A DNA stretch of 36,463 nt from a virus (lineage: Duplodnaviria > Caudoviricetes), in the IMG/VR virus record IMGVR_UViG_3300028633_000022, positions 1 to 36,463 of that record. One strand, written 5' to 3'. Positions 18 through 21,967 of this stretch are shown here, piece after piece. Positions within the stretch are counted from its first letter, which is position 1. Each line of letters begins with the position of its first letter. Below the pieces are notes generated by a model. That model had not been told where the DNA came from, did no database searches, and saw nothing but the letters and a program-made list of their open reading frames with translations. The position numbers and the translations under genes were made by a program.

Positions 18-191
18 ATGAAAAAGGTCTACCTCCACTTTCAGAAGAAAGTGCTCAGGAGAGCTGAGCAGACCCATAACTCCACCTCTCCATATAGCAA
101 CGCCCTGGAATACGAGCTGAATACTGCCTATGCCAAGCTGATCGGGTCCTTCGGATACCTCAGCAAGTACAATCCCTATGAGGAGGATTAA
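18..191 (+). CDS. small hypothetical phage protein (57 aa, not in ORF track)
   Basis: GGAGAAGGA upstream of ATG 18; open frame MKKVYLHFQK...PYEED to TAA 189-191; abuts next gene. Confidence 0.6.
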   Translation: MKKVYLHFQKKVLRRAEQTHNSTSPYSNALEYELNTAYAKLIGSFGYLSKYNPYEED

Positions 192-192
192 A

Positions 193-489
193 ATGATAAA
201 GCTCCAGACCAATCCGAATACCAGGTATGAGTTCCCCAATCTCAGCTTCGTCTATGTAATCACTCAAGTAGACGGGGTTATCCACCTTATCCAGGAAGAA
301 GATAATGTGATCATGATTGCTCTGATTCCTGACTATCCTCCACAGATGTTTGACATGAAAGCTGACCTCACAAAAGCTCCCAAGGCTGACTACACCAGAG
401 CGAGAGAACAGCTGAAGGAATACAAGCAGTTGATGGAGTACAACGGCAAATCCCGCGATGTGTACTGCGACATCCACTTCTGGAGTTGA
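193..489 (+). CDS. hypothetical phage protein
   Basis: ORF 178..489; GAGGAGG at 180-186 favours ATG 193 (MIKLQ...). Confidence 0.7.
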   Translation: MIKLQTNPNTRYEFPNLSFVYVITQVDGVIHLIQEEDNVIMIALIPDYPPQMFDMKADLTKAPKADYTRAREQLKEYKQLMEYNGKSRDVYCDIHFWS

Positions 490-490
490 T

Positions 491-560
491 TCCTGATCGG
501 AGCTTTCCTTCTGGAAGGCTCCCGTGAGGATTAGCCTAGGTAGTGGACATCAACTATAAG
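491..560 (+). other. intergenic hairpin plus conserved motif, copy A
   Basis: GATC, stem GGAGCTTTCC/GGAAGGCTCC (499-522) with TTCT loop, then GGTAGTGGACATCAACTATAA (539-559); related copy at 3071-3131. Confidence 0.55.
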
Positions 561-573
561 AAGGAGAAGAACG

Positions 574-660
574 ATGAGAGCACTTACAGTTTTCTTTGAC
601 CGTAGGGACCTGGAGATCGGGCGCTCGGACGCTGTGATTGGTATGAACATTTACAAGTAG
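574..660 (+). CDS. 28-aa micro-ORF directly upstream of hammerhead
   Basis: AAGGAG RBS at 561-566; MRALTVFFDRRDLEIGRSDAVIGMNIYK then TAG. Confidence 0.45.
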   Translation: MRALTVFFDRRDLEIGRSDAVIGMNIYK

Positions 661-662
661 CA

Positions 663-735
663 GCTTACCGAAATGCCCACAGTGAAGGTGGGCATACAGC
701 GTGGGTGGTTCCACGCTGCTGATGAGGTAGCCACC
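663..735 (+). ncRNA. type II hammerhead ribozyme
   Basis: TACC-GAAA(670-673)-stem III TGCCCAC/GTGGGCA-TA(695-696)-stem I CAGCGTGG/CCACGCTG-CTGATGA(719-725)-GGTA; loop I GTGGT can pair with 3' GCCAC (730-734). Confidence 0.92.
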
Positions 736-769
736 TCAACAAAACCCCAAATGGGCAAAGGAGCATCAA

Positions 770-1525
770 ATGAAGAAGACATTAGAGCAGTTGAAGGCAG
801 AAGCTGAAGTTGCAGCAAAGGCTTTGAAAGAAGCCGAGGAAGCCGCTCGACAGACTGAGCGTGAAGCCAAAGCTGCTGAGGAAAAAGCCAAGGCTCTGAT
901 CAAGGCCAAAGAAACGCAGTACATCAAGATCCAAATCCTGACACAGCTCCACAAAGTGCTGGTAACCACCTTCAAAGATGCCATTCTGGAATCTCCTGAA
1001 GTGACTGATCCTTACAGAAGCTGGAAAGAGCCAAACATCACACTTTCTCCTGGAACCAATTATCCTTACATCTATGTCCAGGCTAGAAAAACTGCTGATG
1101 CTTGGCATCCTCGCTTCCTTGGCTGGGGAATTGCTCTTACACTAGAGCCGTTCGGCAAGACACGAGTTTATCCTGCTCTGTCCAATGGTGGTTACAGCTA
1201 CGACAAGATCGTAAAGGTCATCAAAGAGCATCAGGAAGCCAAGATAGTCGCCGAGAGACGAGAAGCTGAGAACAAGATCAGGAAGGCACGAAAGACCGAC
1301 TTGGCAGGAAGCGTCAAAAAAGATCTTGGTCTGAAGGAAGATAGTGTACTGGTTCAGGGAGTGCTCGAACAAGGATATCGTGACTACAGAGGAAGGTGGT
1401 GTCCTAGGTCTTACGAGGCTTCCGATGGACACGTCTGGCTCAATCTTGGCAGCAGGCAGTGTACTCCTGAGCAGGTAAAGATCATGATCAACGCAATGAG
1501 ACTGGCTGGATTTGAAACCAAATAA
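770..1525 (+). CDS. hypothetical protein with N-terminal coiled coil
   Basis: 251-aa ORF, AAGGAG RBS, A/E/K-rich N-terminus. Confidence 0.8.
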   Translation: MKKTLEQLKAEAEVAAKALKEAEEAARQTEREAKAAEEKAKALIKAKETQYIKIQILTQLHKVLVTTFKDAILESPEVTDPYRSWKEPNITLSPGTNYPYIYVQARKTADAWHPRFLGWGIALTLEPFGKTRVYPALSNGGYSYDKIVKVIKEHQEAKIVAERREAENKIRKARKTDLAGSVKKDLGLKEDSVLVQGVLEQGYRDYRGRWCPRSYEASDGHVWLNLGSRQCTPEQVKIMINAMRLAGFETK

Positions 1526-1536
1526 GGAGCACTCAA

Positions 1537-1671
1537 ATGAGCAAAAGACCTTACAGTACCAAACTGAACAAATTAGGGATTGATGCCAGAACCGACCTCA
1601 GCAAGCAAGAAGAGATAGGCATCATTGAAACTCTCCACGATGCCTTTGAAGAAGAACAATTAAAATACTAA
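1537..1671 (+). CDS. small hypothetical protein (44 aa, not in ORF track)
   Basis: TAAGGAG RBS; MSKRPYSTKL...EQLKY, TAA 1669-1671; fills the gap between genes. Confidence 0.55.
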   Translation: MSKRPYSTKLNKLGIDARTDLSKQEEIGIIETLHDAFEEEQLKY

Positions 1672-1680
1672 GGAGAAAAC

Positions 1681-2673
1681 ATGACAAAAGAAGAATTGAC
1701 TATTATTTTAGAAAAACACGCATCATGGCTAAGTAATAACGAAGATGGCACTAGAGCAGATCTCTCTAGAGCAAATCTCTCTGAAGCAGATCTCTCTGGA
1801 GCAAATCTCTCTAGAGCAAATCTCTCTAGAGCAAATCTCTCTAGAGCAAATCTCTCTAGAGCAAATCTCTCTAGAGCAAATCTCTCTGGAGCAAATCTCT
1901 CTAGAGCAAATCTCTATGGAGCAGATCTCTCTGGAGCAGATCTCTCTGGAGCAGATCTCTATGGAGTGAATCTCTCTAGAGCAAATCTCTATGGAGCAGA
2001 TCTCTCTGGAGCAGATCTCTCTGGAGCAGATCTCTATGGAGTGAATCTCTCTGGAGCAAATCTCTCTGGAGCAAATCTCTCTAGAGCAAATCTCTATGGA
2101 GCAGATCTCTCTGGAGCAGATCTCTCTGGAGCAAATCTCTCTAGAGCAAATCTCTATGGAGCAGATCTCTCTGGAGCAAATCTCTCTAGAGCAAATCTCT
2201 CTGGAGCAAATCTCTCTAGAGCAAATCTCTCTAGAGCAAATCTCTCTGGAGCAAATCTCTCTAGAGCAAATCTCTATGGAGCAGATCTCTCTGGAGTGAA
2301 TCTCTCTAGAGCAAGACATTTAATAAAAATAATGGGAGTAGAACATGGTAACTATTATTGGAAAAGATTTGGAAGGGGACTCGTCAATAATCAATACAAA
2401 TTCAAAATAGGACTCAATACATTAAGAACAAATGAAATATTCGCTTCTGATGAAAGGGTCGTTTACTCCTATCCTGGTTTTCATTTCGCATCTAGATCAT
2501 GGTGTGCTGTAAATTACCATGATCGACCATTAGAAGCAAAAATTAGGATTCCAGAAAATGCTCAAATTAACGAGCCATGGGCTACGGATGGAAAAGCTTC
2601 TGCAGATATGATTGAGATCATACAGGTCTTTGATGTTGCAACAGGTGAAGACGTAACAGATCAATATAGATAA
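1681..2673 (+). CDS. pentapeptide repeat protein with C-terminal globular domain
   Basis: A(N/D)L(S/Y)(R/G) repeats after typical lead-in 'ILEKHASWL...GTRADLS'; AAGGAG RBS. Confidence 0.93.
1756..2310 (+). repeat. 15-bp coding tandem repeat, 37 units
   Basis: consensus GCA(A/G)ATCTCT(C/A)T(A/G)GA over 555 bp. Confidence 0.95.
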
Positions 2674-6806: not shown

Positions 6807-6835
6807 TTTACTTACCGGGGAGGTTCTAATATAAT
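6807..6835 (+). promoter_or_regulatory. sigma70-type promoter P1
   Basis: TTTACT-17 bp-TATAAT; same -35 hexamer recurs at 10364 and 23009. Confidence 0.75.
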
Positions 6836-10363: not shown

Positions 10364-10391
10364 TTTACTTTTTAAGAAAATCTATTATACT
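10364..10391 (+). promoter_or_regulatory. sigma70-type promoter P2
   Basis: TTTACT-16 bp-TATACT; shares TTTACTTTTTAAGAA with P3. Confidence 0.65.
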
Positions 10392-10413: not shown

Positions 10414-10513
10414 TGGCCCCCGGCTAGGGTAGCTCCTGAAAAGTCCTACCTGCCCGGACCTGCCTGGGGGCCAACCAAGGGCAGGATCAAAAACCATAGA
10501 GAAAGGGGTAGGA
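10414..10513 (+). ncRNA. C4-like (c4-2-type) antisense RNA and targets
   Basis: stem TGGCCCCCGGC/GCCTGGGGGCCA, core GGCTAGGGTAGCTCCTGAAAAG, hairpin GTCC-TACCTGCCC-GGAC; CCTGCCC pairs with GGGCAGG (10479-10485), TCCTACC with GGTAGGA (10507-10513). Confidence 0.7.
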
Positions 10514-11404: not shown

Positions 11405-12265
11405 ATGCCGTATGCCCAATGCTACTCCTACGACCTCAATGAGCTTAGGAAAAAAGCATCCCAAAGCAGTATCTGGGAAGGATTCCCGGATTGCTCAGGC
11501 AAAGCCGTGTTTATCAAACCAAACCTCGTCACTCCCCCCAACCGATTCGATTACCAATCATGCACTCACGTTAACTTAGTCCGAATAGTTGCAGAAATGG
11601 CGCTGGAAGGTGGTGCGGATAAGGTGGTGATAGGAGAGTGTGGGTTTAAGAATCAATGGCAGAAAACCATGGAATTCTGCTCCTACCAGGACCTTTTATC
11701 CCTAAGTCCTAAGATCGAGATTATACCCCTACAGGATGGCCCTAACTTCCACAAATTTTCCCTAGTGAGACTTACCAAAGGGGAGTACCTCAGCCTGTAC
11801 GGCGTGAAGTTCTCCGATTACCTTCTGGAATGCGATCTGGTAATTAATATCCCTAAACTGAAAATGCACTCCATGGCCTTTATTACCGGTGCCATTAAGA
11901 ACATGATGGGCACTATGGCCCAAAAGGGTAGTATGCACCCTAAAGCAGATCCCTCTATACTCCATAAAAGGTTAAGGGACTTTTACCTATTGATACAGCC
12001 AAGGATTAAATTTTGTTTAATGGACGGGATAATAGGTGCAGAATACTGCGAGCAGTATGGAGTACCTGTACAATCCAATTTACTGATATCAGAAACAGAT
12101 TGCTGGAAGTTGGATTGTATGGCTGCTTCTGCTATGTCAGTAAAGCCATCAGAAGTTCCCTACCTGAGCTTGATAAAGAGGTTCAAGATGGAAGAATGGC
12201 CAGAGTTGATTCCTTTAGAACTTCGTAAGCCTTATGAAAGACCATTGGGTTGGAGAAAAGATTGA
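11405..12265 (+). CDS. DUF362-family (Fe-S associated) protein
   Basis: VFIKPNLV, VVIGE, VINIPKLKMH, TGAIKNMMG, MDGIIG, LD..AA. Confidence 0.85.
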   Translation: MPYAQCYSYDLNELRKKASQSSIWEGFPDCSGKAVFIKPNLVTPPNRFDYQSCTHVNLVRIVAEMALEGGADKVVIGECGFKNQWQKTMEFCSYQDLLSLSPKIEIIPLQDGPNFHKFSLVRLTKGEYLSLYGVKFSDYLLECDLVINIPKLKMHSMAFITGAIKNMMGTMAQKGSMHPKADPSILHKRLRDFYLLIQPRIKFCLMDGIIGAEYCEQYGVPVQSNLLISETDCWKLDCMAASAMSVKPSEVPYLSLIKRFKMEEWPELIPLELRKPYERPLGWRKD

Positions 12266-13479
12266 AAAGGGATATATCCAAATCTAAATTTTCATCCATA
12301 GTGGGATGGAGAGGGGATAGCCTAGTGTGTCCTCAGGCCTTTGGTGGGGATATTTACGCTGGCTGTTCTATGGATTGTTGGTGGTGCTTCTGTCGGGAGA
12401 TGGAAGAAGAGCTGTACAATAAATACTACTCAGGATGGAGCCGGAACCTAGTGAGACCTTGTGATCCAGAAGATTACCGAAGGCTGTTTGATAAGGCTTT
12501 TGGTAGTGATAAGGATTACCGGGATTGGTTTGTATCCTGCCTGAGGCAAGGACTACCTTTTAACATGGGTAGTAAGGCGGAAACCTTCTGCCGGGAGGAT
12601 GTGGACTTAGGTGTAGACAGTGTAGTGGTAAAGGTGCTGAAAATATTCCTAGAGTACCAAGTGCCCATAATATTTCAAACCAAATCCCACTATGTTGGCC
12701 TATCCCGCTACTTGGATATTATCAAGGAACTCAATTGTGCTGTAGTGGTAAGCGTAATGGGCGGAACAGATACCCTAAACTATGAACTGGAGCCAGGATC
12801 TCCCTGTGCTTCTGCCCGTTGGTACTTAGTGAAAGAATTATTGAAAAGAAAGATCTGGACAGCAGTTAGATGGGAGCCCATAATGCCCGGCATTAACTCC
12901 TCCCGAGAAGTCCTGGAATCCTATGCTGAGCAGGTAAGTAAATCAGGAGCCCGCCATGTGTCCTGGTACAACTACCGAACATCCAATGCCCGCCGGGCTC
13001 AAGTAGAGTTCGAGTCCAGGGGGTATAATTACATAAAGATGTTAGAAAAGAATCTTGATTCAGAGTGGAAACCTGTAGGGGATATTTTCCTAGAGGCTCT
13101 GTCCTCCAGAGGAGTTCGGCAATCCACCCCAGACTTTGTGAATTTTCCTTTTTCCAATAGCTGTCAGAGCTGCTGCGGGGTGGATGGTCTCTTTACCCCT
13201 TATGAATTTACTTTCCAGCATGCTTGCCGCCTCATATTGGATAAGGGATTTGTTAATTGGGAGGATATGGAAAGTATATCCTTCAAAGAACCCAAAGCCT
13301 ATGAAAGAATGAAGGCCATATGGAATGGAGGAAGAAAAGATTACTATTCCTTGGCCGATAGTCCTGGGGTAGTGATTCTGGATAAGGATAAAAAGGGATT
13401 CAACGTGTACGGCAAATCGGATGCTATACCCTCTGGAATGAAAAAGAAAAAGATAGGCTTTGGTTTGAATCTTAAATAA
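12262..13479 (+). CDS. radical SAM protein 1 (spore photoproduct lyase-like)
   Basis: DIYAGCSMDCWWC (CxxxCxxC), QTKS, LEPGSP...R, VRWEPIMPG, C-terminal SCCG; TTGA overlap with DUF362 stop. Confidence 0.87.
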   Translation: MKRDISKSKFSSIVGWRGDSLVCPQAFGGDIYAGCSMDCWWCFCREMEEELYNKYYSGWSRNLVRPCDPEDYRRLFDKAFGSDKDYRDWFVSCLRQGLPFNMGSKAETFCREDVDLGVDSVVVKVLKIFLEYQVPIIFQTKSHYVGLSRYLDIIKELNCAVVVSVMGGTDTLNYELEPGSPCASARWYLVKELLKRKIWTAVRWEPIMPGINSSREVLESYAEQVSKSGARHVSWYNYRTSNARRAQVEFESRGYNYIKMLEKNLDSEWKPVGDIFLEALSSRGVRQSTPDFVNFPFSNSCQSCCGVDGLFTPYEFTFQHACRLILDKGFVNWEDMESISFKEPKAYERMKAIWNGGRKDYYSLADSPGVVILDKDKKGFNVYGKSDAIPSGMKKKKIGFGLNLK

Positions 13480-13490
13480 GGATAGATACC

Positions 13491-14876
13491 TTGGATTATT
13501 ATGAAATCCGATCCAGAGCTTCCAAGTTGATTCCCAGGTGGAATCAGTTTTTACCCAATGAGGAGAAGAAAGGAGCAGTTAAAGAGAAAGGCCGGAAGAG
13601 CAATTATCATCAGTTCCACTTGGAAAGAGGTAAGTGGGAGAAGAGGGAGCGTCTTCTCAACACTGAAGAGATCAATAGCTTTCTGGAAATTTCTCTTCGA
13701 GCTCAGGCCTGTCCCATGCCTCTCAACCTCGATACGTGGGATGGTCTTCTCTGCCCGTTTTTGTGTAAGTATTGCTATGCAGATGCCTTCCGAGCGTCTT
13801 TGTACACTTCCTTCTTTGATAACAGCAAATCCGTGGGATTACGCCACTGTAACCCCGACTTCTACCGAAGGGAACTAGACAAACTCTTCAAGCTCCGTGG
13901 AACCGATGTTCATCAGCTCCAAGGAGTCCGAAAAGCAGTGGCCATGGAAATCCCCATCCGGTTTGGGATAAGGTTTGAAGACTTTCATGGGGTGGAAGGA
14001 AAACGGGGCATTTCCCTGGCCATGCTCCAATACCTATCTGAAAATGCTTATCCTATCATGATCAATACGAAGTCTGGATTAGTAGGCAGGGAGGATTATG
14101 TACGAGCACTAGCGAGCAATCCTGCTGGGTCAGCTGTGCACATTACGATGATAAGCAGTCAGGAAGATCTTCTTAAGAGGATAGAACCAGGGGCACCCCC
14201 ATTCTCCCAGAGACTGGAAGCAGCAAAGAACCTAGCAGATGGAGGGGTTCGGGTGGTGGCCCGAATAGAACCATTCTTGGTATTCCAAACCGATCATCCA
14301 GATGATGTGGAAGAATACTGTGAGAAAACCTGGGAAGCAGGTATTCGCCACATCACCTTTGACACTTACAGCTACAGCGCTTCCAATCCAGGAATAAGAA
14401 ACAACTTCATCAAATTGGGAATAGACTATGACCGGATGTTCCTCCTGGGTTGCGATAGCCAAGGGGTGGGTTCTCTCCTCCTGGAATCCTTCATGAAGAT
14501 ATTTCGGGCAAAGGGATTTAGCTGTTCTACCTTTGACTTGGGATGTGTTCCTAATAATGACCAAGCCATCTGTTGTGAAGTAGGAGATTGGTTTAAAGGA
14601 GGATTCAATTGGGGTAGTATTGTGGGAGCTATTCGTCTCATAAGGGATAGAGGGTTGACCCCAACCAGTTGGGTTGACTTTGAGAATTGGGTGGAAGAAA
14701 GAGGAGGATTTCTCACCCCTCAACTAAAATTAAGTGTCCATGAACTCTGGAATGTCCAGGGGAATGATGCCTATTCAGTAGTTTGGGGACAAGGAATAGT
14801 TCCTGCTGGATGGAATGACAGTGGAATAATCTGGCAATATCGAGAAGGAGAAGACTTCAGAAAGGACATGGTATGA
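13491..14876 (+). CDS. radical SAM protein 2 (spore photoproduct lyase-like)
   Basis: CPFLCKYCYA, NTKS, IEPGAP...RL, ARIEPF, C-terminal ICCE; TTG start with AAGGA upstream. Confidence 0.87.
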   Translation: MDYYEIRSRASKLIPRWNQFLPNEEKKGAVKEKGRKSNYHQFHLERGKWEKRERLLNTEEINSFLEISLRAQACPMPLNLDTWDGLLCPFLCKYCYADAFRASLYTSFFDNSKSVGLRHCNPDFYRRELDKLFKLRGTDVHQLQGVRKAVAMEIPIRFGIRFEDFHGVEGKRGISLAMLQYLSENAYPIMINTKSGLVGREDYVRALASNPAGSAVHITMISSQEDLLKRIEPGAPPFSQRLEAAKNLADGGVRVVARIEPFLVFQTDHPDDVEEYCEKTWEAGIRHITFDTYSYSASNPGIRNNFIKLGIDYDRMFLLGCDSQGVGSLLLESFMKIFRAKGFSCSTFDLGCVPNNDQAICCEVGDWFKGGFNWGSIVGAIRLIRDRGLTPTSWVDFENWVEERGGFLTPQLKLSVHELWNVQGNDAYSVVWGQGIVPAGWNDSGIIWQYREGEDFRKDMV

Positions 14877-15703
14877 AAATTGCTAGCACAGGAATACAAG
14901 CCTTTGCTCATGCTGCAGCTCTAGACAAGGATGGGCGTCTGAGTAACACTATTTATTGTGAAGGTAAAGACATCTTCATCCTCAACCAGGACAACTCAGT
15001 ACTCATCCGGTTTCAATTCTCTAACCAGGAATTTGAGCACTCTGTTTGCTTTCGAGCAGAAGACTATGATAGCAATGAGCTATATGAAAAGGAAGGGAAG
15101 ATAGTCTTCGTCCAGAAGAGTGAAGAATGGGTTAGAGAAAAATCCTGTAGAACTCCCGGAAGAACTCCTGGGGAGGTTCGCCAGCTTTGGAAATCTCTTC
15201 GTTTTCCACGAGGACCAAAAATTCATCTCTCCTCCTCCATTCTTCCTCTCTTGGACTCTTCTCTCAGTCATATTGAGTTTTCTGTAAAGAAAGGCAAGTT
15301 TCAACTTTGCCAGAAAAACATCTACACTGGAGTTTCTTCTCAAATGGAAAAGGCAAAGTCCTCCATGATGGGAAGTGGGGATGAACTGGGGGATAAGGAG
15401 TATGGTCCTATTGGGATGAGAACTGGGGACTTTATGGCTCTGTTCAGCTTCTGTGAAGCTTTGGAAATCACCTTTCCCAAAGATCCCATGGAAGGTTACT
15501 TTTATGTAAATGGTCCCAAAGTGGCGGGATTGCCCAGTAATCTTCAAGCTTTTGTTTGTATGTGTATTTATGATGAATTAGGGGATATTCAGTACTTGCT
15601 CAAACAGGAGGATTCCAATGGGCGGGAAGAGCAGAAAGAGCGGAGGAGTGAGCCGGGAGTTGATCGAAAGGTTAAAACGAGGACCAAAAGCCGAAACCAA
15701 TAA
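14873..15703 (+). CDS. hypothetical protein (possibly clamp-like fold)
   Basis: 276-aa ORF coupled to rSAM2 by ATGA; fold suggestion is weak. Confidence 0.7.
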   Translation: MKIASTGIQAFAHAAALDKDGRLSNTIYCEGKDIFILNQDNSVLIRFQFSNQEFEHSVCFRAEDYDSNELYEKEGKIVFVQKSEEWVREKSCRTPGRTPGEVRQLWKSLRFPRGPKIHLSSSILPLLDSSLSHIEFSVKKGKFQLCQKNIYTGVSSQMEKAKSSMMGSGDELGDKEYGPIGMRTGDFMALFSFCEALEITFPKDPMEGYFYVNGPKVAGLPSNLQAFVCMCIYDELGDIQYLLKQEDSNGREEQKERRSEPGVDRKVKTRTKSRNQ

Positions 15704-15767
15704 ATGCAGATCTTCCAAGAAGAAAGAGGAGGAACCCAAAGGTGGATTCTTTAGTAAAAAGCAATAG
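15618..15767 (+). CDS. 49-aa basic protein (not in ORF track)
   Basis: AGGAGG RBS before ATG 15618; MGGKSRKSGG...PKGGFFSKKQ, TAG 15765-15767. Confidence 0.6.
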   Translation: MGGKSRKSGGVSRELIERLKRGPKAETNKCRSSKKKEEEPKGGFFSKKQ

Positions 15768-16521
15768 TCCCACGTCCTATCTACTGAAGATGGAATGGTT
15801 CAAGCTTCGGCCTACTTTTTGGACCTCAGAAGCTTATCTGACTTGTGTTCCTGGTCTGACTTCCTTCCGCTTCAAGGGTAGCAATTGGCTGGAGGATGAG
15901 GAAGGAGTATGCTTATTTCCTCCCATAACTGACCGAGGAACATATGACCTATCAGTCCAATCCTGGGCAATTCCTTCAGATCAATTACGAGAAGATTTCT
16001 CCTTTTTGGATTGGGAGTATATTTACCACTCAGAGAACTTCCTGGACCTGTCTGGGAGTAAGTGGGAAGTATTCCGGAAAAACTCTCGCAAATGGATAAA
16101 ATCTCATCCTCATTGGACATACTACTCTTTGAAGGACTGGGGGAAGTCTCTTGAGTCCTTACTTATCAAATGGTTGGAAAACAAGATAGAGGAAAAGATT
16201 CATGATGGGGAAGTCATGCTCAATTACCTCTCCCAGGGAAATGGGCAGATATTTGGGTTGTGGGAAAAGGATAGATTGGTAGGATTCAACTGTTGGGATC
16301 TCAACTATCGTTGGGTGAACTTCCGTTACAGTTTTGCTGATCCTGGAGAACCTTGGTTGTCTGAGTTTCTCCGGCTCCTATTTTATCAATCTCAGTCTTA
16401 CCTGGAAGTTAATGATGGAGGTATTCTGGACAATCCCAATCTGGAACGGTTCAAGGACAAACTCCATCCTGTAGAAAAGAACAAGGTTCACTCTTCTGTA
16501 GGAAAAGACTATGCTAATTGA
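15742..16521 (+). CDS. DUF2156/phosphatidylglycerol lysyltransferase-like GNAT-fold protein
   Basis: EYIY...LDLSGSKWEVFRKN and EVNDGG.LDNPNLERFKDKLHPV resemble DUF2156 motifs (DYIY..L..L.G.K....RN; IN..D.G..GLR..K....P). Confidence 0.65.
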   Translation: MDSLVKSNSPTSYLLKMEWFKLRPTFWTSEAYLTCVPGLTSFRFKGSNWLEDEEGVCLFPPITDRGTYDLSVQSWAIPSDQLREDFSFLDWEYIYHSENFLDLSGSKWEVFRKNSRKWIKSHPHWTYYSLKDWGKSLESLLIKWLENKIEEKIHDGEVMLNYLSQGNGQIFGLWEKDRLVGFNCWDLNYRWVNFRYSFADPGEPWLSEFLRLLFYQSQSYLEVNDGGILDNPNLERFKDKLHPVEKNKVHSSVGKDYAN

Positions 16522-16753
16522 ACCTGATGAACTTGAAGATTGGTGGGAGAAGCACTGGAAAGATATGCCTGAATTTTCTCAAGAGGACCAGTCGCCAGTT
16601 CAGTCTATACTTGTTCATTTCTACACTAAGGAAGATGTTCAAGATTTTGCCAAACTGGTTCAACAAAGGATAACTACAAGGACTAGGTTTATCAGGTTTC
16701 CCAATTCAGAAAATGCCAAGTTAAAAGAGATGGGATGGTTTGATGAATCCTAA
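16511..16753 (+). CDS. small protein of the type found beside phage TAGT glycosyltransferases
   Basis: W..MPEF.QED...ILVHF...EDVQDFAKLV.Q.IT pattern; overlaps GT start. Confidence 0.7.
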   Translation: MLIEPDELEDWWEKHWKDMPEFSQEDQSPVQSILVHFYTKEDVQDFAKLVQQRITTRTRFIRFPNSENAKLKEMGWFDES

Positions 16754-17573
16754 ATATCCAGTGTACATTATCTCTAAAGGCCGATGGAAGTCCAGGTTGA
16801 CTAGCAAAAGTCTGGAGCGTATGAATGTTCCATATAGAATTGTAGTGGAACCCCAGGAATGGAAAGAATATGCTAGGGTTATCCACCGCAACAAGATCCT
16901 GACCCTACCATTTAGCAATCTTGGTCAAGGTTCTATCCCTGCTAGAAACTGGGTCTGGGATCATTCTATACAAGAAGGGCATAAAAAGCACTGGATACTG
17001 GATGATAACATAGGTTGTTTCTACCGGTTAAACCATAATCTAAAATATAGGGTTTGGTCTGGAACCATTTTCCGGGTGGCTGAGATCTTCACTGATCGTT
17101 ACAGTAATGTAGCAATCTCAGGGTTTAACTAGGAATTGCTAATCCCCAGAAAAAGAAAAAATCCTCCTTTCTACTTAAACACAAGGGTGTACTCCAATCT
17201 CTTAATCCGTAATGATCTACCATATAGGTGGAGAGGTCGGTACAATGAAGACACAGATCTTTGCTTACGAGCATTAAAAGGAGGATGGTGTACCATCTTG
17301 TTCAACGCTTTCCTGGCAGATAAAATAGCTACCATGTCCATGAAAGGAGGTAATACAGATGAGCTATACAAGGATGATGGCCGGCTGAAAATGGCTCAGT
17401 CCCTAGTAGACCAACACCCAGATGTAGCAAGGGTTTCATTTAAGTGGGGAAGACCCCAACACCATGTAGATTATTCCAAGTTCAAGAAGAACAAACTCAA
17501 GCTCAAACCAGGATTGGAAATACCAGAAGGAATCAATGAATATGGATTGGTTCTGAGAAGAGTGGAGGTGTAA
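16743..17573 (+). CDS. TET/JBP-associated (TAGT/GREB1-like) glycosyltransferase with in-frame TAG at 17130-17132
   Basis: PVYIISKGR and HWILDDNI in first ORF, RYNEDTDL and KGGNT in second; both in one frame. Confidence 0.8.
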
Positions 17574-18949: not shown

Positions 18950-19210
18950 ATGATCTTATACCCAAGGAAAAAGAAATTCAAATGTAAAGTCTGCGGAGAG
19001 CCCATCCACTGTGAGAATGCTACGCATGACAGTTGTAAGGAGGATGGATTGGATTCCGGCGGCCGAAGGCGAATAAACATATACCTCGACCGAGCTTACA
19101 AGGAGATAAAGGAAGGACTTTCTAGCAAGGTGAAAACAAAAACCTGGTCCAAGAAAGATGGGAAAGACAAGCTTCGAGAACTGTTCCCAGATATGGTGGA
19201 TAGACTATGA
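18950..19210 (+). CDS. small Zn-finger hypothetical protein
   Basis: CKVCG...H..C; GGAG RBS. Confidence 0.6.
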   Translation: MILYPRKKKFKCKVCGEPIHCENATHDSCKEDGLDSGGRRRINIYLDRAYKEIKEGLSSKVKTKTWSKKDGKDKLRELFPDMVDRL

Positions 19211-20565
19211 ATAATGGATTCTTCAAAAACTCTCATGATCCAGCTTTGTCCTCCCGCATTAAGTTAACAGGATGTTCCAGCTGTGGCCTATCCTCGGGTT
19301 GCCTTCATCCAAAGATGGAACCCACTGGACAAGGACAAAAGAAGATCCTTTTTGTGGCTGAAGGACCTGGAGAGGATGAAGATAGACTGGGGACCCAACT
19401 CATAGGGAGAGTGGGGCAAAGGCTCAGAAGAACAATACAGGAAATGGGATTTGATCTGGACAAAGATTGTAGAAAGACCAATGCTGTACGATGCCGCCCT
19501 CCTGAGAATAGGTCCCCAACAGGCCTGGAAATATCCCAATGTAGAAATCACATATTTGAGGAGATAGAGAAATCCAAACCCCAGGTGATAATTCTCCTTG
19601 GGGGATCGGCTGTTCTCTCGCTATTGGGAGATAGATGGAAGGGAAATTCAGACTTCACCGTTAGTAGATGGAGAGGATTGACCATACCTGATCATGAATT
19701 AGAAGCCTGGGTTTGTCCCACCTTTCATCCCAGCTATGTGGAGAGAAGTGACCACTATGCCCCAGCCGTGGATGTTATATGGAAAAGGGATCTCAAGAGA
19801 GCATTGAACTTATGCGGAACTCCTCTCCCTGAGAAGCCTGACCCTGAGATCAGAATGTTAAAGGGAAAGCAAATAGAGGAGTATTTGCTTGGATTGTGGA
19901 GAAGAGGAAAGTCAACAGATATGGTAAAAACCAAGTTTCCCTTTGCTGGTCTTACTCCAGGGACGGAAGAGTGGATGATCTATTGGAAGAACAACCGAAA
20001 GCAGCAGAGAAATATGCTAATGTACCAAAGAAATCCAGTACTGTTGATTTCCCCATCTCCTCTGACCATAGCCTTTGACTATGAGACCACTGGATTAAAA
20101 CCTTATCGGGAAGACCATAAAATACTATGTTGCTCTATAGCTGAAAGTCCTGACCTGGTAAATGTATGGATGTGGAGCAAGGGTTCCATACCAATGTTCA
20201 ATGAGGTGATGAAATTAGGAACCATAATGAAGATTGCTGGTAATATCAAGTTCGAGCACATATGGACACGCCAGATATGTAGATCAGAGATTCAGGGATG
20301 GTGGTGGGATACAGTAGTGGCCGGTAAAACCTTAGATCACCGGCCAGGGAATAGCAATGTGAAGTTCCAAGCATACAGTCGTCTGGGGATCATAGATTAT
20401 GGCAGTCGAATCCAGCCCTTCATATCCTCTACAGATGGTACTAGCAATGGATTCAACCGTCTCCAGGAGATTCCATCCAGAGAGTTAATGGAGTATTGCG
20501 CAATGGATTCTGCTCTGGAATATGGGATAGCTCTGGACCAAAGGAAGGAGATGGGATATGCCTAA
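19207..20565 (+). CDS. family 4 uracil-DNA glycosylase-like domain fused to 3'-5' exonuclease (N-terminal part of split DNA polymerase)
   Basis: CSSC, EGPGEDED, NAVRCRPP.NR.P, FHPSY (UDG); FDYETTGL, NIKFE, YCAMD (Exo I-III). Confidence 0.88.
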   Translation: MNNGFFKNSHDPALSSRIKLTGCSSCGLSSGCLHPKMEPTGQGQKKILFVAEGPGEDEDRLGTQLIGRVGQRLRRTIQEMGFDLDKDCRKTNAVRCRPPENRSPTGLEISQCRNHIFEEIEKSKPQVIILLGGSAVLSLLGDRWKGNSDFTVSRWRGLTIPDHELEAWVCPTFHPSYVERSDHYAPAVDVIWKRDLKRALNLCGTPLPEKPDPEIRMLKGKQIEEYLLGLWRRGKSTDMVKTKFPFAGLTPGTEEWMIYWKNNRKQQRNMLMYQRNPVLLISPSPLTIAFDYETTGLKPYREDHKILCCSIAESPDLVNVWMWSKGSIPMFNEVMKLGTIMKIAGNIKFEHIWTRQICRSEIQGWWWDTVVAGKTLDHRPGNSNVKFQAYSRLGIIDYGSRIQPFISSTDGTSNGFNRLQEIPSRELMEYCAMDSALEYGIALDQRKEMGYA

Positions 20566-21967
20566 AATATGGGCTGCAACCAAAGAGGCATATCAACTAT
20601 TCCATGATGGGTCCCTGGCTCTGGCTGAAGCAGAATTCAATGGAATAAGATGTGATCAAAACTACTGCCGCCGTATGATCTCCAACATTGAGAGACAGGT
20701 CAAATCCCTGACTTCTCAACTGGACTCCACTGAGATAGGAAAAATCTGGAGAACCAGATTCGGCTCCCAGATGTCTTATTCCAGCGATACCCAGCTCCGA
20801 AAGATCCTTATAGAAGATCTGAATTTCAAGTCCAACAAGAAGACTGCCAAGGGCAACATATCGGTGGATAAGCAGGTTCTGGAATCTGTGGACAGGGAGG
20901 ATGTTCGGCTCCTAATGAAAAAGAGAAACCTAGAGAAGATGTCTGGAACCTACCTGAAGAACATTTTGGAAGAATCCTTAGCAGATGGATACATCCACCC
21001 CTTCTTCCATCTCTCTGAGTTTAGTGACTCAAAGGCTGGAGGAGCCAGAAGCTTCCGTGGCAGTAGTTCTGATCCAAACTTTCAGAACCAGCCAAATAGG
21101 CATGAGGATGACAGGAAGCTTATCCGAAGAGCCTTCCTTCCCAGGCCGGGCCATAGGATTGTCGGGAGGGATTATGGGGCTATGGAGTTCAGAATCTCAG
21201 CTTGTCTTCACCAAGATCCAAACATGATAAGGTACATTGAGAATGGAGATGATCCCCATCGAGATGTAGCTTCCCACTGCTTCCTACTTGATCCAGATCT
21301 TTGTACAAAGAAATGCGGGGAGTATGGAAAGAATATCCGGCATGTAGGAAAGAACAGTGTGACCTTTGCCCAGATGTACTTCCAGGAGCCTGAGAACACT
21401 GCTGAGGGAATATGGAAAGCCATAAAAGATATGGACCTCAGAGTTCCAAATGATCCAGAGAAAAAGCTCATTTCCCACCTCAAGGATAAGAAAATTGGAA
21501 CCTTTGACTCTTTCAATAATCATATTGTAAGCAAGGTCATCCCTTGGTTCTGGAATGAGATGTTCCCAGAGTATGGTAGATGGAGAATAAAGTGGTTGGA
21601 AGACTATAACAAGAAAGGATACTTCGATATGATAACTGGGTTCAGAGTGGAGGGGGTCCTATCGAAGTACCAGCTGGGGAATTATCCAATCCAAGGGCCA
21701 GCTTTCCATTGTCTTCTATGGTCCATGATTCAAGTCCATAAGCTTTGGAAGGAGAAGAAAGCTAATAGCAAGCTAATTGGACAGATCCATGATGAATTAA
21801 CCACAGATGAACCTGGGGAAGAGTTTGAGGAGAACCAGAAGATAATACCCAGAATAATGTCAGAGGACATAAGAAAATCTTGGCCTTGGATAGTTGTACC
21901 ACTTTCTGTTGAATCCTCAGCAACTCCTGTGAATGGTAACTGGTACGAAAAGAAGGATATTTCCTAA
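20558..21967 (+). CDS. polA: family A DNA polymerase, polymerase domain
   Basis: SSSDPNFQNQP, motif A DYGAMEFR, motif B RHVGK....F...Y, NYPIQG, motif C QIHDEL; own AAGGAG RBS. Confidence 0.92.
   Translation: MPKIWAATKEAYQLFHDGSLALAEAEFNGIRCDQNYCRRMISNIERQVKSLTSQLDSTEIGKIWRTRFGSQMSYSSDTQLRKILIEDLNFKSNKKTAKGNISVDKQVLESVDREDVRLLMKKRNLEKMSGTYLKNILEESLADGYIHPFFHLSEFSDSKAGGARSFRGSSSDPNFQNQPNRHEDDRKLIRRAFLPRPGHRIVGRDYGAMEFRISACLHQDPNMIRYIENGDDPHRDVASHCFLLDPDLCTKKCGEYGKNIRHVGKNSVTFAQMYFQEPENTAEGIWKAIKDMDLRVPNDPEKKLISHLKDKKIGTFDSFNNHIVSKVIPWFWNEMFPEYGRWRIKWLEDYNKKGYFDMITGFRVEGVLSKYQLGNYPIQGPAFHCLLWSMIQVHKLWKEKKANSKLIGQIHDELTTDEPGEEFEENQKIIPRIMSEDIRKSWPWIVVPLSVESSATPVNGNWYEKKDIS

What the first reader, a model, noticed from the sequence alone, without database searches (positions are those of the whole stretch)
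663..737. Type II hammerhead ribozyme with pseudoknot in the early region
All core nucleotides are present (CUGAUGA, GAAA, UH) with perfect stems I and III; predicted cleavage after AUA at 696. Loop I GTGGT complements the 3' tail GCCAC, a tertiary contact known in type II hammerheads. It begins 2 nt after a micro-ORF stop and ends about 35 nt before the next start. A competing hairpin GAGGT-AGCC-ACCTC (724-737) would break stem II and the pseudoknot, so cleavage might be switchable or coupled to translation (inference).
Basis: partly seen in the sequence, partly recalled or inferred. Interest (0 to 1): 0.7.

Follow-up and report, generated by a model that had tools for sequence, protein, structure and literature searches.

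The report
Hammerhead ribozyme between phage early genes
A textbook type II hammerhead ribozyme motif sits between two genes of an uncultured phage and likely cuts the long, probably early, message there; this layout has been known since 2011, and a real competing hairpin in this copy might slow the cut but is not shown to be a switch.

Summary
Confirmed and ordinary. Window 666-736 matches Rfam Hammerhead_II (44.9 bits, cut-off 37). The core is complete, stems I and III are perfect, and the predicted cut is 696/697. The window is a tailed-phage fragment; a near-identical contig shows a promoter-like motif 2.2 kb upstream. Sitting between a stop codon and a ribosome-binding site is the family norm: 35 of 52 dereplicated viral members have a gene end within 12 nt (controls 1-2), and 74 of 98 have a start just downstream. 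This scan found the same layout on other DNA before. The competing hairpin is real, longer than reported (723-738, plus two pairs), third strongest of 105 members, and thermodynamically competitive. It shows no compensatory changes, is missing from most members, and loses a pair in one relative. The micro-ORF looks like a mosaic of gene pieces, not a leader peptide. Best reading: likely constitutive, perhaps slowed, mRNA processing. Translation-gated switch about 8%. No RNA end was observed.

The parts
663..669 (+). Stem II 5' strand; 667-669 is the 3-bp family-type stem, 663-666 an optional extension
   Evidence: sequence; stem II is 3 bp in 68 of 105 members; extension replaced in a relative's contig
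670..673 (+). Core G12 A13 A14 A15.1
674..694 (+). Stem-loop III, 7 Watson-Crick pairs, 7-nt loop
   Evidence: pair A679-U689 is C-G in the relative read through by protein P0004
695..697 (+). U16.1-A17 and predicted scissile bond 696/697 (AUA triplet)
   Evidence: position from the hammerhead consensus; AUA in 3 of 105 members; cleavage not observed
697..718 (+). Stem-loop I, 8 Watson-Crick pairs; loop 705-710 carries the pseudoknot strand GUGGU
719..725 (+). Core C3 U4 G5 A6 U7 G8 A9
726..729 (+). Stem II 3' strand
730..734 (+). 3' tail pairing with loop I (pseudoknot, 4-5 bp)
   Evidence: complementarity; inner pair formed in 73 of 99 distinct members vs 64.0 in shuffles, outer pair 34 of 99 vs 34.4
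720..741 (+). Competing hairpin 723-728/733-738 plus 720-721/740-741, predicted -8.2 kcal/mol; incompatible with stem II, core and pseudoknot
574..660 (+). 28-codon ORF with AAGGAG at 561-566; probably a mosaic of a gene start (573-634) and a gene end (626-660)
   Evidence: branch points at 626 and 634 in relatives' contigs; no PHROG match
758..1525 (+). Shine-Dalgarno AAGGAG (758-763) and downstream 251-aa gene of unknown function (770-1525)
   Evidence: 8 homologs, none with a Pfam domain; no usable Atlas hit

Best explanation
A complete type II hammerhead motif fills the gap between a stop codon and the next ribosome-binding site in a phage operon, and it likely cuts the predicted polycistronic early message at 696/697 without a protein, probably constitutively and perhaps more slowly than typical members. 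Steps: (1) inferred, transcription from a promoter-like motif about 2.2 kb upstream runs through several small genes; (2) predicted, stems III and I fold, the short stem II closes the junction and the loop I-tail pseudoknot locks the active shape; (3) established chemistry for this class, G12 and G8 catalyse cleavage to a 2',3'-cyclic phosphate and a 5'-OH; (4) inferred, the downstream 251-aa gene gets a fixed leader that starts with a 5'-OH and two hairpins, with its Shine-Dalgarno left open, so its stability and translation no longer depend on whichever gene lies upstream in this shuffled region. The competing hairpin is most likely a lineage trait that lowers the cleaved fraction or helps release the products, not a regulated switch.
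For: Rfam match above the curated cut-off; passes the three rejection criteria of Perreault 2011, who found 14 of 18 tested consensus hammerheads active and phage arrays cleaving in vitro and in E. coli. Compensatory pair in stem III of a relative. In one relative (runs X15/X16, one study) 667-761 has no differing letter while 667-1651 has 104 differences in 982 nt. Junction placement is the family norm: 35 of 52 vs 1-2 shifted and 4.2 shuffled; 74 of 98 with SD and start vs 9 of 99, 6 of 64, 12 of 64. Different upstream sequences join the same ribozyme at 626 and 667, gene order is swapped in a relative, and P0007 fuses an upstream gene's N-terminus to the downstream gene. The SD is predicted open in the 3' product (unpaired 0.78).
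Against: No cleavage or RNA end was observed: the one raw-read run laid 0 reads, and contigs cannot show ends. The nested model puts P(stem II) at 0.002 once 745 is transcribed. With pseudoknot stacking of -10.1 and assumed penalties of 3 to 9.6 kcal/mol, the active fold ranges from 0.2 better to 6.4 worse than the hairpin form, core contacts not counted, so the copy could be mostly inactive. A review passage says AUA can be much slower than GUC in trans-acting hammerheads. The ATG itself is predicted paired (unpaired 0.13). The effect of a 5'-OH on stability depends on the host, which is unknown; a 2020 review says effects of 5'-OH ends from primer-initiated transcripts were not reported. Identity of 667-761 in the relative could reflect recent exchange rather than selection.
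Confidence: 0.65

Rival explanations
1. Translation-gated ribozyme. A ribosome terminating at 658-660 would melt the 5' strand of stem II (recalled: the ribosome unwinds mRNA about 5 nt past the A-site codon and covers about 10), freeing 726-729 to snap into the 720-741 hairpin and trap the RNA uncleaved. Translation of the upstream ORF would then set the processed fraction.
For: The stop lies 9 nt from G12. The hairpin is stronger than in 102 of 105 members; 13 of 5000 shuffled tails and 1 of 104 grafted tails do as well (post hoc). P(stem II) falls from 0.98 to 0.24 to 0.002 as the 3' end grows from 734 to 737 to 745. A CCU tail follows in 6 of 24 members with GG in stem II vs 2 of 81 others, and one more such member turned up.
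Against: Four of those six share a near-identical stem I and look like one lineage. L028 and L094 keep the tail without the pairing; no compensatory version was found. The P0004 relative has U728 changed to C, which breaks the closing pair. A second hammerhead-like core lacking the hairpin precedes the same leader in run X16 (30 letters seen). The micro-ORF appears to be a mosaic, not a conserved leader peptide. Stop-adjacency is shared by most members that have no such hairpin.
Confidence: 0.08
2. Attenuated or product-releasing design. The AUA triplet and the hairpin were kept to give partial, slow cleavage (a fixed ratio of long to processed mRNA), or to strip the 5' fragment and block re-ligation after the cut. 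Tuned, but not signal-responsive.
For: Two features point the same way: the rare triplet (3 of 105; slower in trans constructs) and the hairpin. The tail is unchanged in the X15/X16 relative; C734, C735, C737 and A738 are kept in the P0004 relative even though the G705 partner of C734 is lost. The 3' product folds into two stacked 5' hairpins (z -4.3).
Against: Retention over short evolutionary distance is expected without selection. Most members lack the hairpin and have only 2-3 bp of stem II, so products should part anyway. No rates were measured.
Confidence: 0.17
3. A dead or nearly dead copy: the hairpin and AUA suppress cleavage, and the element persists as a spacer or recombination seam in a shuffled region.
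For: The nested model strongly favours the hairpin. Relatives branch at 626, 667 and 740 around the element. Perreault found 4 of 18 consensus candidates inactive, and adding a pair to stem II lowered activity in one construct.
Against: Every core base and pair is intact; a compensatory change keeps stem III; 667-761 is unchanged while the adjoining gene differs at about 11%. The nested model omits the pseudoknot and core contacts.
Confidence: 0.1

Closest known systems
Type II hammerhead ribozymes with loop I-3' tail pseudoknot in bacteria and prophages (Rfam RF02276; Perreault et al. 2011, PMC3088659; parts 1-5 of 8 of the text read, supplements not read)
   Same: Permutation, full core, short stem II, loop I-tail pseudoknot, position between phage genes; processing of long transcripts was proposed there.
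   Different: AUA instead of GUC (97 of 105 members have GUC); 4-5 bp stem II; UU where most members have AA at -5/-4; an unusually strong competing hairpin. Only one copy in 36 kb plus 4.3 kb of upstream sequence, not a cluster; the genome is about 45% complete.
HHphage of haloviruses HF1/HF2 (Perreault 2011, discussion)
   Same: Ribozyme just upstream of a start codon in an early region; there a transcript 5' end maps within 3 nt of the cut.
   Different: HHphage has a core insertion and an archaeal host; here the core is canonical and no RNA end is known.
RiboJ-type insulator (synthetic; passages in PMC8942793)
   Same: Works like it: self-cleavage upstream of a hairpin and RBS gives a uniform 5' end whatever lies upstream.
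   Different: Engineered part, different ribozyme; an analogy, not membership.
glmS ribozyme (passages in review PMC6765202)
   Same: Self-cleavage upstream of a bacterial gene.
   Different: glmS needs a metabolite cofactor and triggers decay; it is a different fold. Nothing here indicates a ligand site.
Pseudoknot-containing hammerhead of Zhan et al. 2024 (PMC11300833, PDB 8YDC; parts 1-2 of 6 read)
   Same: Same core and G12/G8 chemistry.
   Different: There the pseudoknot replaces helix II in a pistol-like fold; here helix II is kept and the pseudoknot joins loop I to the 3' tail. Not the same architecture.

Membership tests
Type II hammerhead (RF02276) | Core C3 U4 G5 A6 N7 G8 A9, G12 A13 A14 A15, U16, H17 unmutated | tested here: met
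   719-725, 670-673, 695-696 against the criteria
Type II hammerhead (RF02276) | Pairs next to the core intact (10.1-11.1, 1.1-2.1, 15.1-16.1) | tested here: met
   G726-C669, C697-G718, A673-U695
Type II hammerhead (RF02276) | Stems I and III closed by loops, stem II open | tested here: met
Type II hammerhead (RF02276) | Score above the Rfam gathering threshold | tested here: met
   44.9 vs 37 bits over model positions 1-66
Type II hammerhead (RF02276) | Pseudoknot of 4 or more pairs between loop I and the 3' tail | tested here: met
   5 complementary pairs in the sequence; inner pair co-varies across 99 members, p 0.001 without correction for kinship; the three central pairs were imposed by the search pattern and could not be tested
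Type II hammerhead (RF02276) | Self-cleavage after H17 | not testable with these tools
   No raw RNA reads on the stretch; contig ends at 696 are an assembly-graph overlap
Clustered phage hammerheads flanking single genes (Perreault 2011) | Two or more ribozymes flanking a gene or block | tested here: inconclusive
   One copy in the window and in L130; a second hammerhead-like core precedes the same leader in a relative's contig; the genome is incomplete
Regulated ribozyme or riboswitch-like switch | Two mutually exclusive structures of similar stability | tested here: inconclusive
   Exclusive structures exist; the balance runs from -0.2 to +6.4 kcal/mol depending on an assumed pseudoknot penalty
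Regulated ribozyme or riboswitch-like switch | Alternative structure conserved with compensatory changes | tested here: not met
   No compensatory version in 81 members with another stem II; closing pair lost in the P0004 relative
Regulated ribozyme or riboswitch-like switch | Conserved leader peptide or ligand input | tested here: inconclusive
   Micro-ORF has an SD, but its two halves join other sequences in relatives; no reporter data
Pistol-like PK hammerhead (8YDC) | Pseudoknot replaces helix II, with helix IV | tested here: not met
   Helix II is present and there is no helix IV

The most novel reading that the evidence does not exclude
A natural translation-gated self-cleaving ribozyme: ribosomes finishing the upstream ORF melt stem II and let the tail fold into a decoy hairpin, so the phage splits its early message only when the upstream gene is not being translated. 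The family-wide habit of starting at a stop codon would be the general sensor.
Probability: 0.08. Interest if true: 0.7.

Novelty: new member of a known kind. Interest (0 to 1): 0.25.

Why it matters
As a find it adds one more member to a family known since 2011. Why phages put self-cleaving RNAs between genes is still open according to a 2019 review, and this copy is a convenient test case because it carries a built-in competitor hairpin and a rare AUA site next to a short translated ORF. A four-base tail change is predicted to restore the active fold (P 0.98), so the switch idea can be settled with a few constructs. If translation did gate cleavage, it would give a function to many stop-adjacent phage hammerheads.

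Tried and rejected
RNA ends: contigs of RNA runs X15/X16 end exactly at 696, but a third contig starts at 667. The 30-nt overlap 667-696 is what a 31-mer assembly graph gives at a branch at 666/667, so this is a coincidence and not cleavage. Raw-read run X21 laid 0 reads (no test); no silent control stretch was laid, so transcription is not shown. Close relatives: an exact 19-mer found 0 viral contigs; the downstream protein and its alignment found 0 loci in viral and metagenome contigs; 0 matches among cultured phages. One independent near-identical contig was found (L130; L129 has the window's length and coordinates). Genome collection: 1 of 11 loci (L181, two copies) parsed as hammerheads. 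Host: DNA polymerase matches are all under 28% in the ten rows listed, so no host can be named. Other ribozymes: none in the window or L130. Hairpin 487-533: two pattern scans gave 38 and 41 loci without shared context or a comparable perfect hairpin, read as chance. A 381-nt gene-free leader in L130 folds no better than shuffles (z -0.04). The generic sigma-70 scan was at chance level (4 vs 4.2). The pseudoknot-length table was mis-anchored for the window and is not used. 13 of 118 unique pattern matches did not parse and were dropped; 31 of 83 clusters were dropped for short flanks or for being the window. Literature searches for stop-codon adjacency and a word search in Perreault 2011 found no statement of it; most subscription papers and the supplements were not seen.

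Full report
Observation. Rfam's Hammerhead_II model matches 666-736 end to end at 44.9 bits against a cut-off of 37, the only match at that level in the window; the same model rings in 0 of 14 control genomes. The core is unmutated and the three pairs next to it are intact, which are the acceptance criteria of Perreault et al. 2011. The predicted cut is between A696 and C697. The feature is real and not chance.

Setting. The window is a whole virus record, linear and about 45% complete. It carries replication, recombination and DNA-modification genes on the + strand and tail genes on the - strand: a tailed phage. Runs that hold the stretch are mostly activated-sludge metagenomes; 14 rows hold half the words or more, 5 of them possibly the source. 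The host is unknown. A near-identical contig, L130 (98.5%), adds 4.3 kb upstream: terminase genes on the other strand, then a promoter-like motif TTTACT-17-TATATA about 2.2 kb before the cut. Two more copies sharing TTTACTTTTTAA lie at window 10364 and 23009. The ribozyme is therefore probably internal to a long message of small unknown genes; 'early' is inferred from gene order.

Family comparison. A degenerate pattern pulled 127 viral loci; 118 unique matches including the window were parsed, and 105 folded as type II hammerheads. Of 101 with enough flank, 78 have a stop within 20 nt of G12 that ends 40 or more open codons; shifted controls give 3-13, shuffles 25 on average. After clustering by upstream flank, 35 of 52 have a gene end of 60 or more codons within 12 nt, against 1-2 shifted and 4.2 shuffled; the commonest distance is 3 nt, so the stop often supplies the conserved AA before stem II. 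Downstream, 74 of 98 have an SD and start within 55 nt, against 9 of 99, 6 of 64 and 12 of 64 in shifted controls. I did not find this stated in three literature searches or in the main text of Perreault 2011, but that paper describes hammerheads flanking prophage genes, and earlier reports of this scan describe the same stop-to-RBS layout. The window departs from the norm in having AUA (3 of 105; GUC 97), a 4-5 bp stem II and UU at -5/-4. The inner pseudoknot pair is formed in 73 of 99 distinct members against 64.0 in shuffles; the outer pair is not conserved (34 vs 34.4). Kinship was not corrected for.

Close relatives. In contigs of runs X15 and X16 (one study) 667-761 has no differing letter, while 667-1651 has 104 differences in 982 nt. 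Protein P0004 was called with an N-terminal extension that reads through a relative's ribozyme; its codons fix three changes: A679-U689 becomes C-G (compensatory, stem III), G705 becomes A (outer pseudoknot pair lost) and U728 becomes C (closing pair of the competing hairpin lost). The region is modular. Other sequences join the window's sequence at 626 (run X14; by eye an open frame in the micro-ORF's phase) and at 667 (X15/X16; by eye ending GLNIYK-stop, 10 nt from G12, against GMNIYK-stop and 9 nt here). The window's 573-634 continues into other sequence in X15/X16; the 178-489 gene lies downstream of the 770 gene in X15; and P0007 joins the N-terminus of the 190-aa upstream gene to the 770 protein. 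The micro-ORF is therefore more likely a gene start fused to a gene end across 626-634 than a dedicated leader peptide. This rests on short assembly-graph pieces and is inference.

The competing hairpin. It is real and longer than reported: 723-728/733-738 plus 720-721/740-741, -8.2 kcal/mol, capturing U7, G8, A9 and stem II. Only 3 of 105 members, the window included, have a local fold this strong (median -1.6); 13 of 5000 shuffled tails and 1 of 104 grafted tails match it (tests chosen after seeing it). Without pseudoknot terms it beats the active fold by 6.9 kcal/mol. Adding -10.1 for pseudoknot stacking and an assumed penalty of 3 to 9.6 leaves the active fold between 0.2 better and 6.4 worse, with core contacts and Mg2+ not counted. 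Computation cannot decide which fold wins. In the family a CCU tail occurs in 6 of 24 members with GG in stem II and 2 of 81 others, plus one more member found later. But four of the six look like one lineage, two members keep the tail with no pairing, and no compensatory version was found. A second hammerhead-like core without the hairpin precedes the same leader in X16 (30 letters seen). The hairpin could slow or cap cleavage, help release products, or be neutral; a conserved switch is not shown.

Mechanism. Shown: the motif, its position, one compensatory pair, the family-wide junction placement. Established for the class: G12 as general base and the G8 2'-OH as general acid, giving a 2',3'-cyclic phosphate and a 5'-OH; phage type II arrays cleave in vitro and in E. 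coli. Inferred: this copy cuts the message at 696/697 and gives the 251-aa gene a fixed leader with two 5' hairpins and an open SD (0.78 unpaired; the ATG is predicted paired, 0.13). RNases E, J and Y mostly prefer 5' monophosphates and 5' stem-loops protect, so stabilisation is plausible, but glmS cleavage leads to decay and the host is unknown. A review passage notes AUA can be much slower than GUC in trans-acting constructs, which may not hold for a tertiary-stabilised natural ribozyme. No RNA-level evidence was obtained: the contig ends at 696 are a graph artefact and the raw-read run laid nothing.

Papers seen. PMC3088659, parts 1-5 of 8 plus word search, supplements (Dataset S1 alignments) not read and they may list related sequences; PMC11300833, parts 1-2 of 6; PMC6765202, PMC3138052, PMC8942793, PMC7509114, passages only. 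Ribosome footprint distances are recalled, from no call.

Verdict. A genuine, canonical member of a known family in its usual place, with one unusual competitor hairpin worth a cheap experiment. New member of a known kind; interest 0.25; translation-gated switch about 8%.

Noticed in passing
window 487-533 (+): A long bulged hairpin (-25.5 kcal/mol, z -4.4) starts at the TGA stop of gene 178-489. In relatives' contigs it follows a different upstream sequence at 487 and leads into different sequence after 533, so it behaves as a swappable stop-to-RBS module like the ribozyme. No Rfam match; no relatives found by two pattern scans. An RNase III-type processing site is a guess.
   Followed up: partly
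window 10417-10481 (+): Near-threshold match to Rfam int-alpA RNA (34.8 bits, cut-off 35.8, E 0.001), just downstream of the promoter-like motif at 10364; it folds no better than shuffles (z 0.74).
   Followed up: partly
window 10364 and 23009; L130 about 2.2 kb upstream of the cut: Three promoter-like copies TTTACTTTTTAA...TATA(T/C), with -35/-10-type spacing; a looser one at 6807. Probably the phage's recurring strong promoter.
   Followed up: partly
window 740-772; L130 upstream of the 190-aa gene; window 1524-1540: A repeated leader ending AAGGAGCA-N-AATG. In run X16 the 740-772 leader follows another hammerhead-like core and precedes another gene.
   Followed up: partly
window 18-191 and L130 2017-2589 (-): The ORF at the window's start is the end of a 190-aa gene whose first 59 residues are 58% identical to the N-terminal extension of P0007, a homolog of the 770-1525 protein: domain shuffling among early genes.
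   Followed up: yes
window 1681-2673: Pentapeptide-repeat ORF (Pfam PF00805, E 7.6e-75). The ORF list runs it to 2673, while the repeats end near 2320; L130 differs here by 30 gap positions over the aligned stretch.
   Followed up: no
window 11405-17573: DUF362, two radical-SAM-like genes and a TET-associated glycosyltransferase match split over two ORFs (16740-17132, 17136-17573): a likely DNA-modification cluster.
   Followed up: no
window 19207-21967: Family A DNA polymerase in two ORFs: uracil-DNA glycosylase plus 3'-5' exonuclease, then the polymerase domain.
   Followed up: no
L130 3330-3710 (-): About 380 nt without a clear gene between the upstream promoter-like motif and the first small gene; GC-rich but no more structured than shuffles and no Rfam match.
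   Followed up: partly
L130 6191-6490: A direct repeat of about 130 nt duplicates the start of a small lipoprotein-like gene next to the terminase (seen by eye).
   Followed up: no
L181 (Kineococcus sp. contig): Two type II hammerheads 600 nt apart, each just after a gene end.
   Followed up: no
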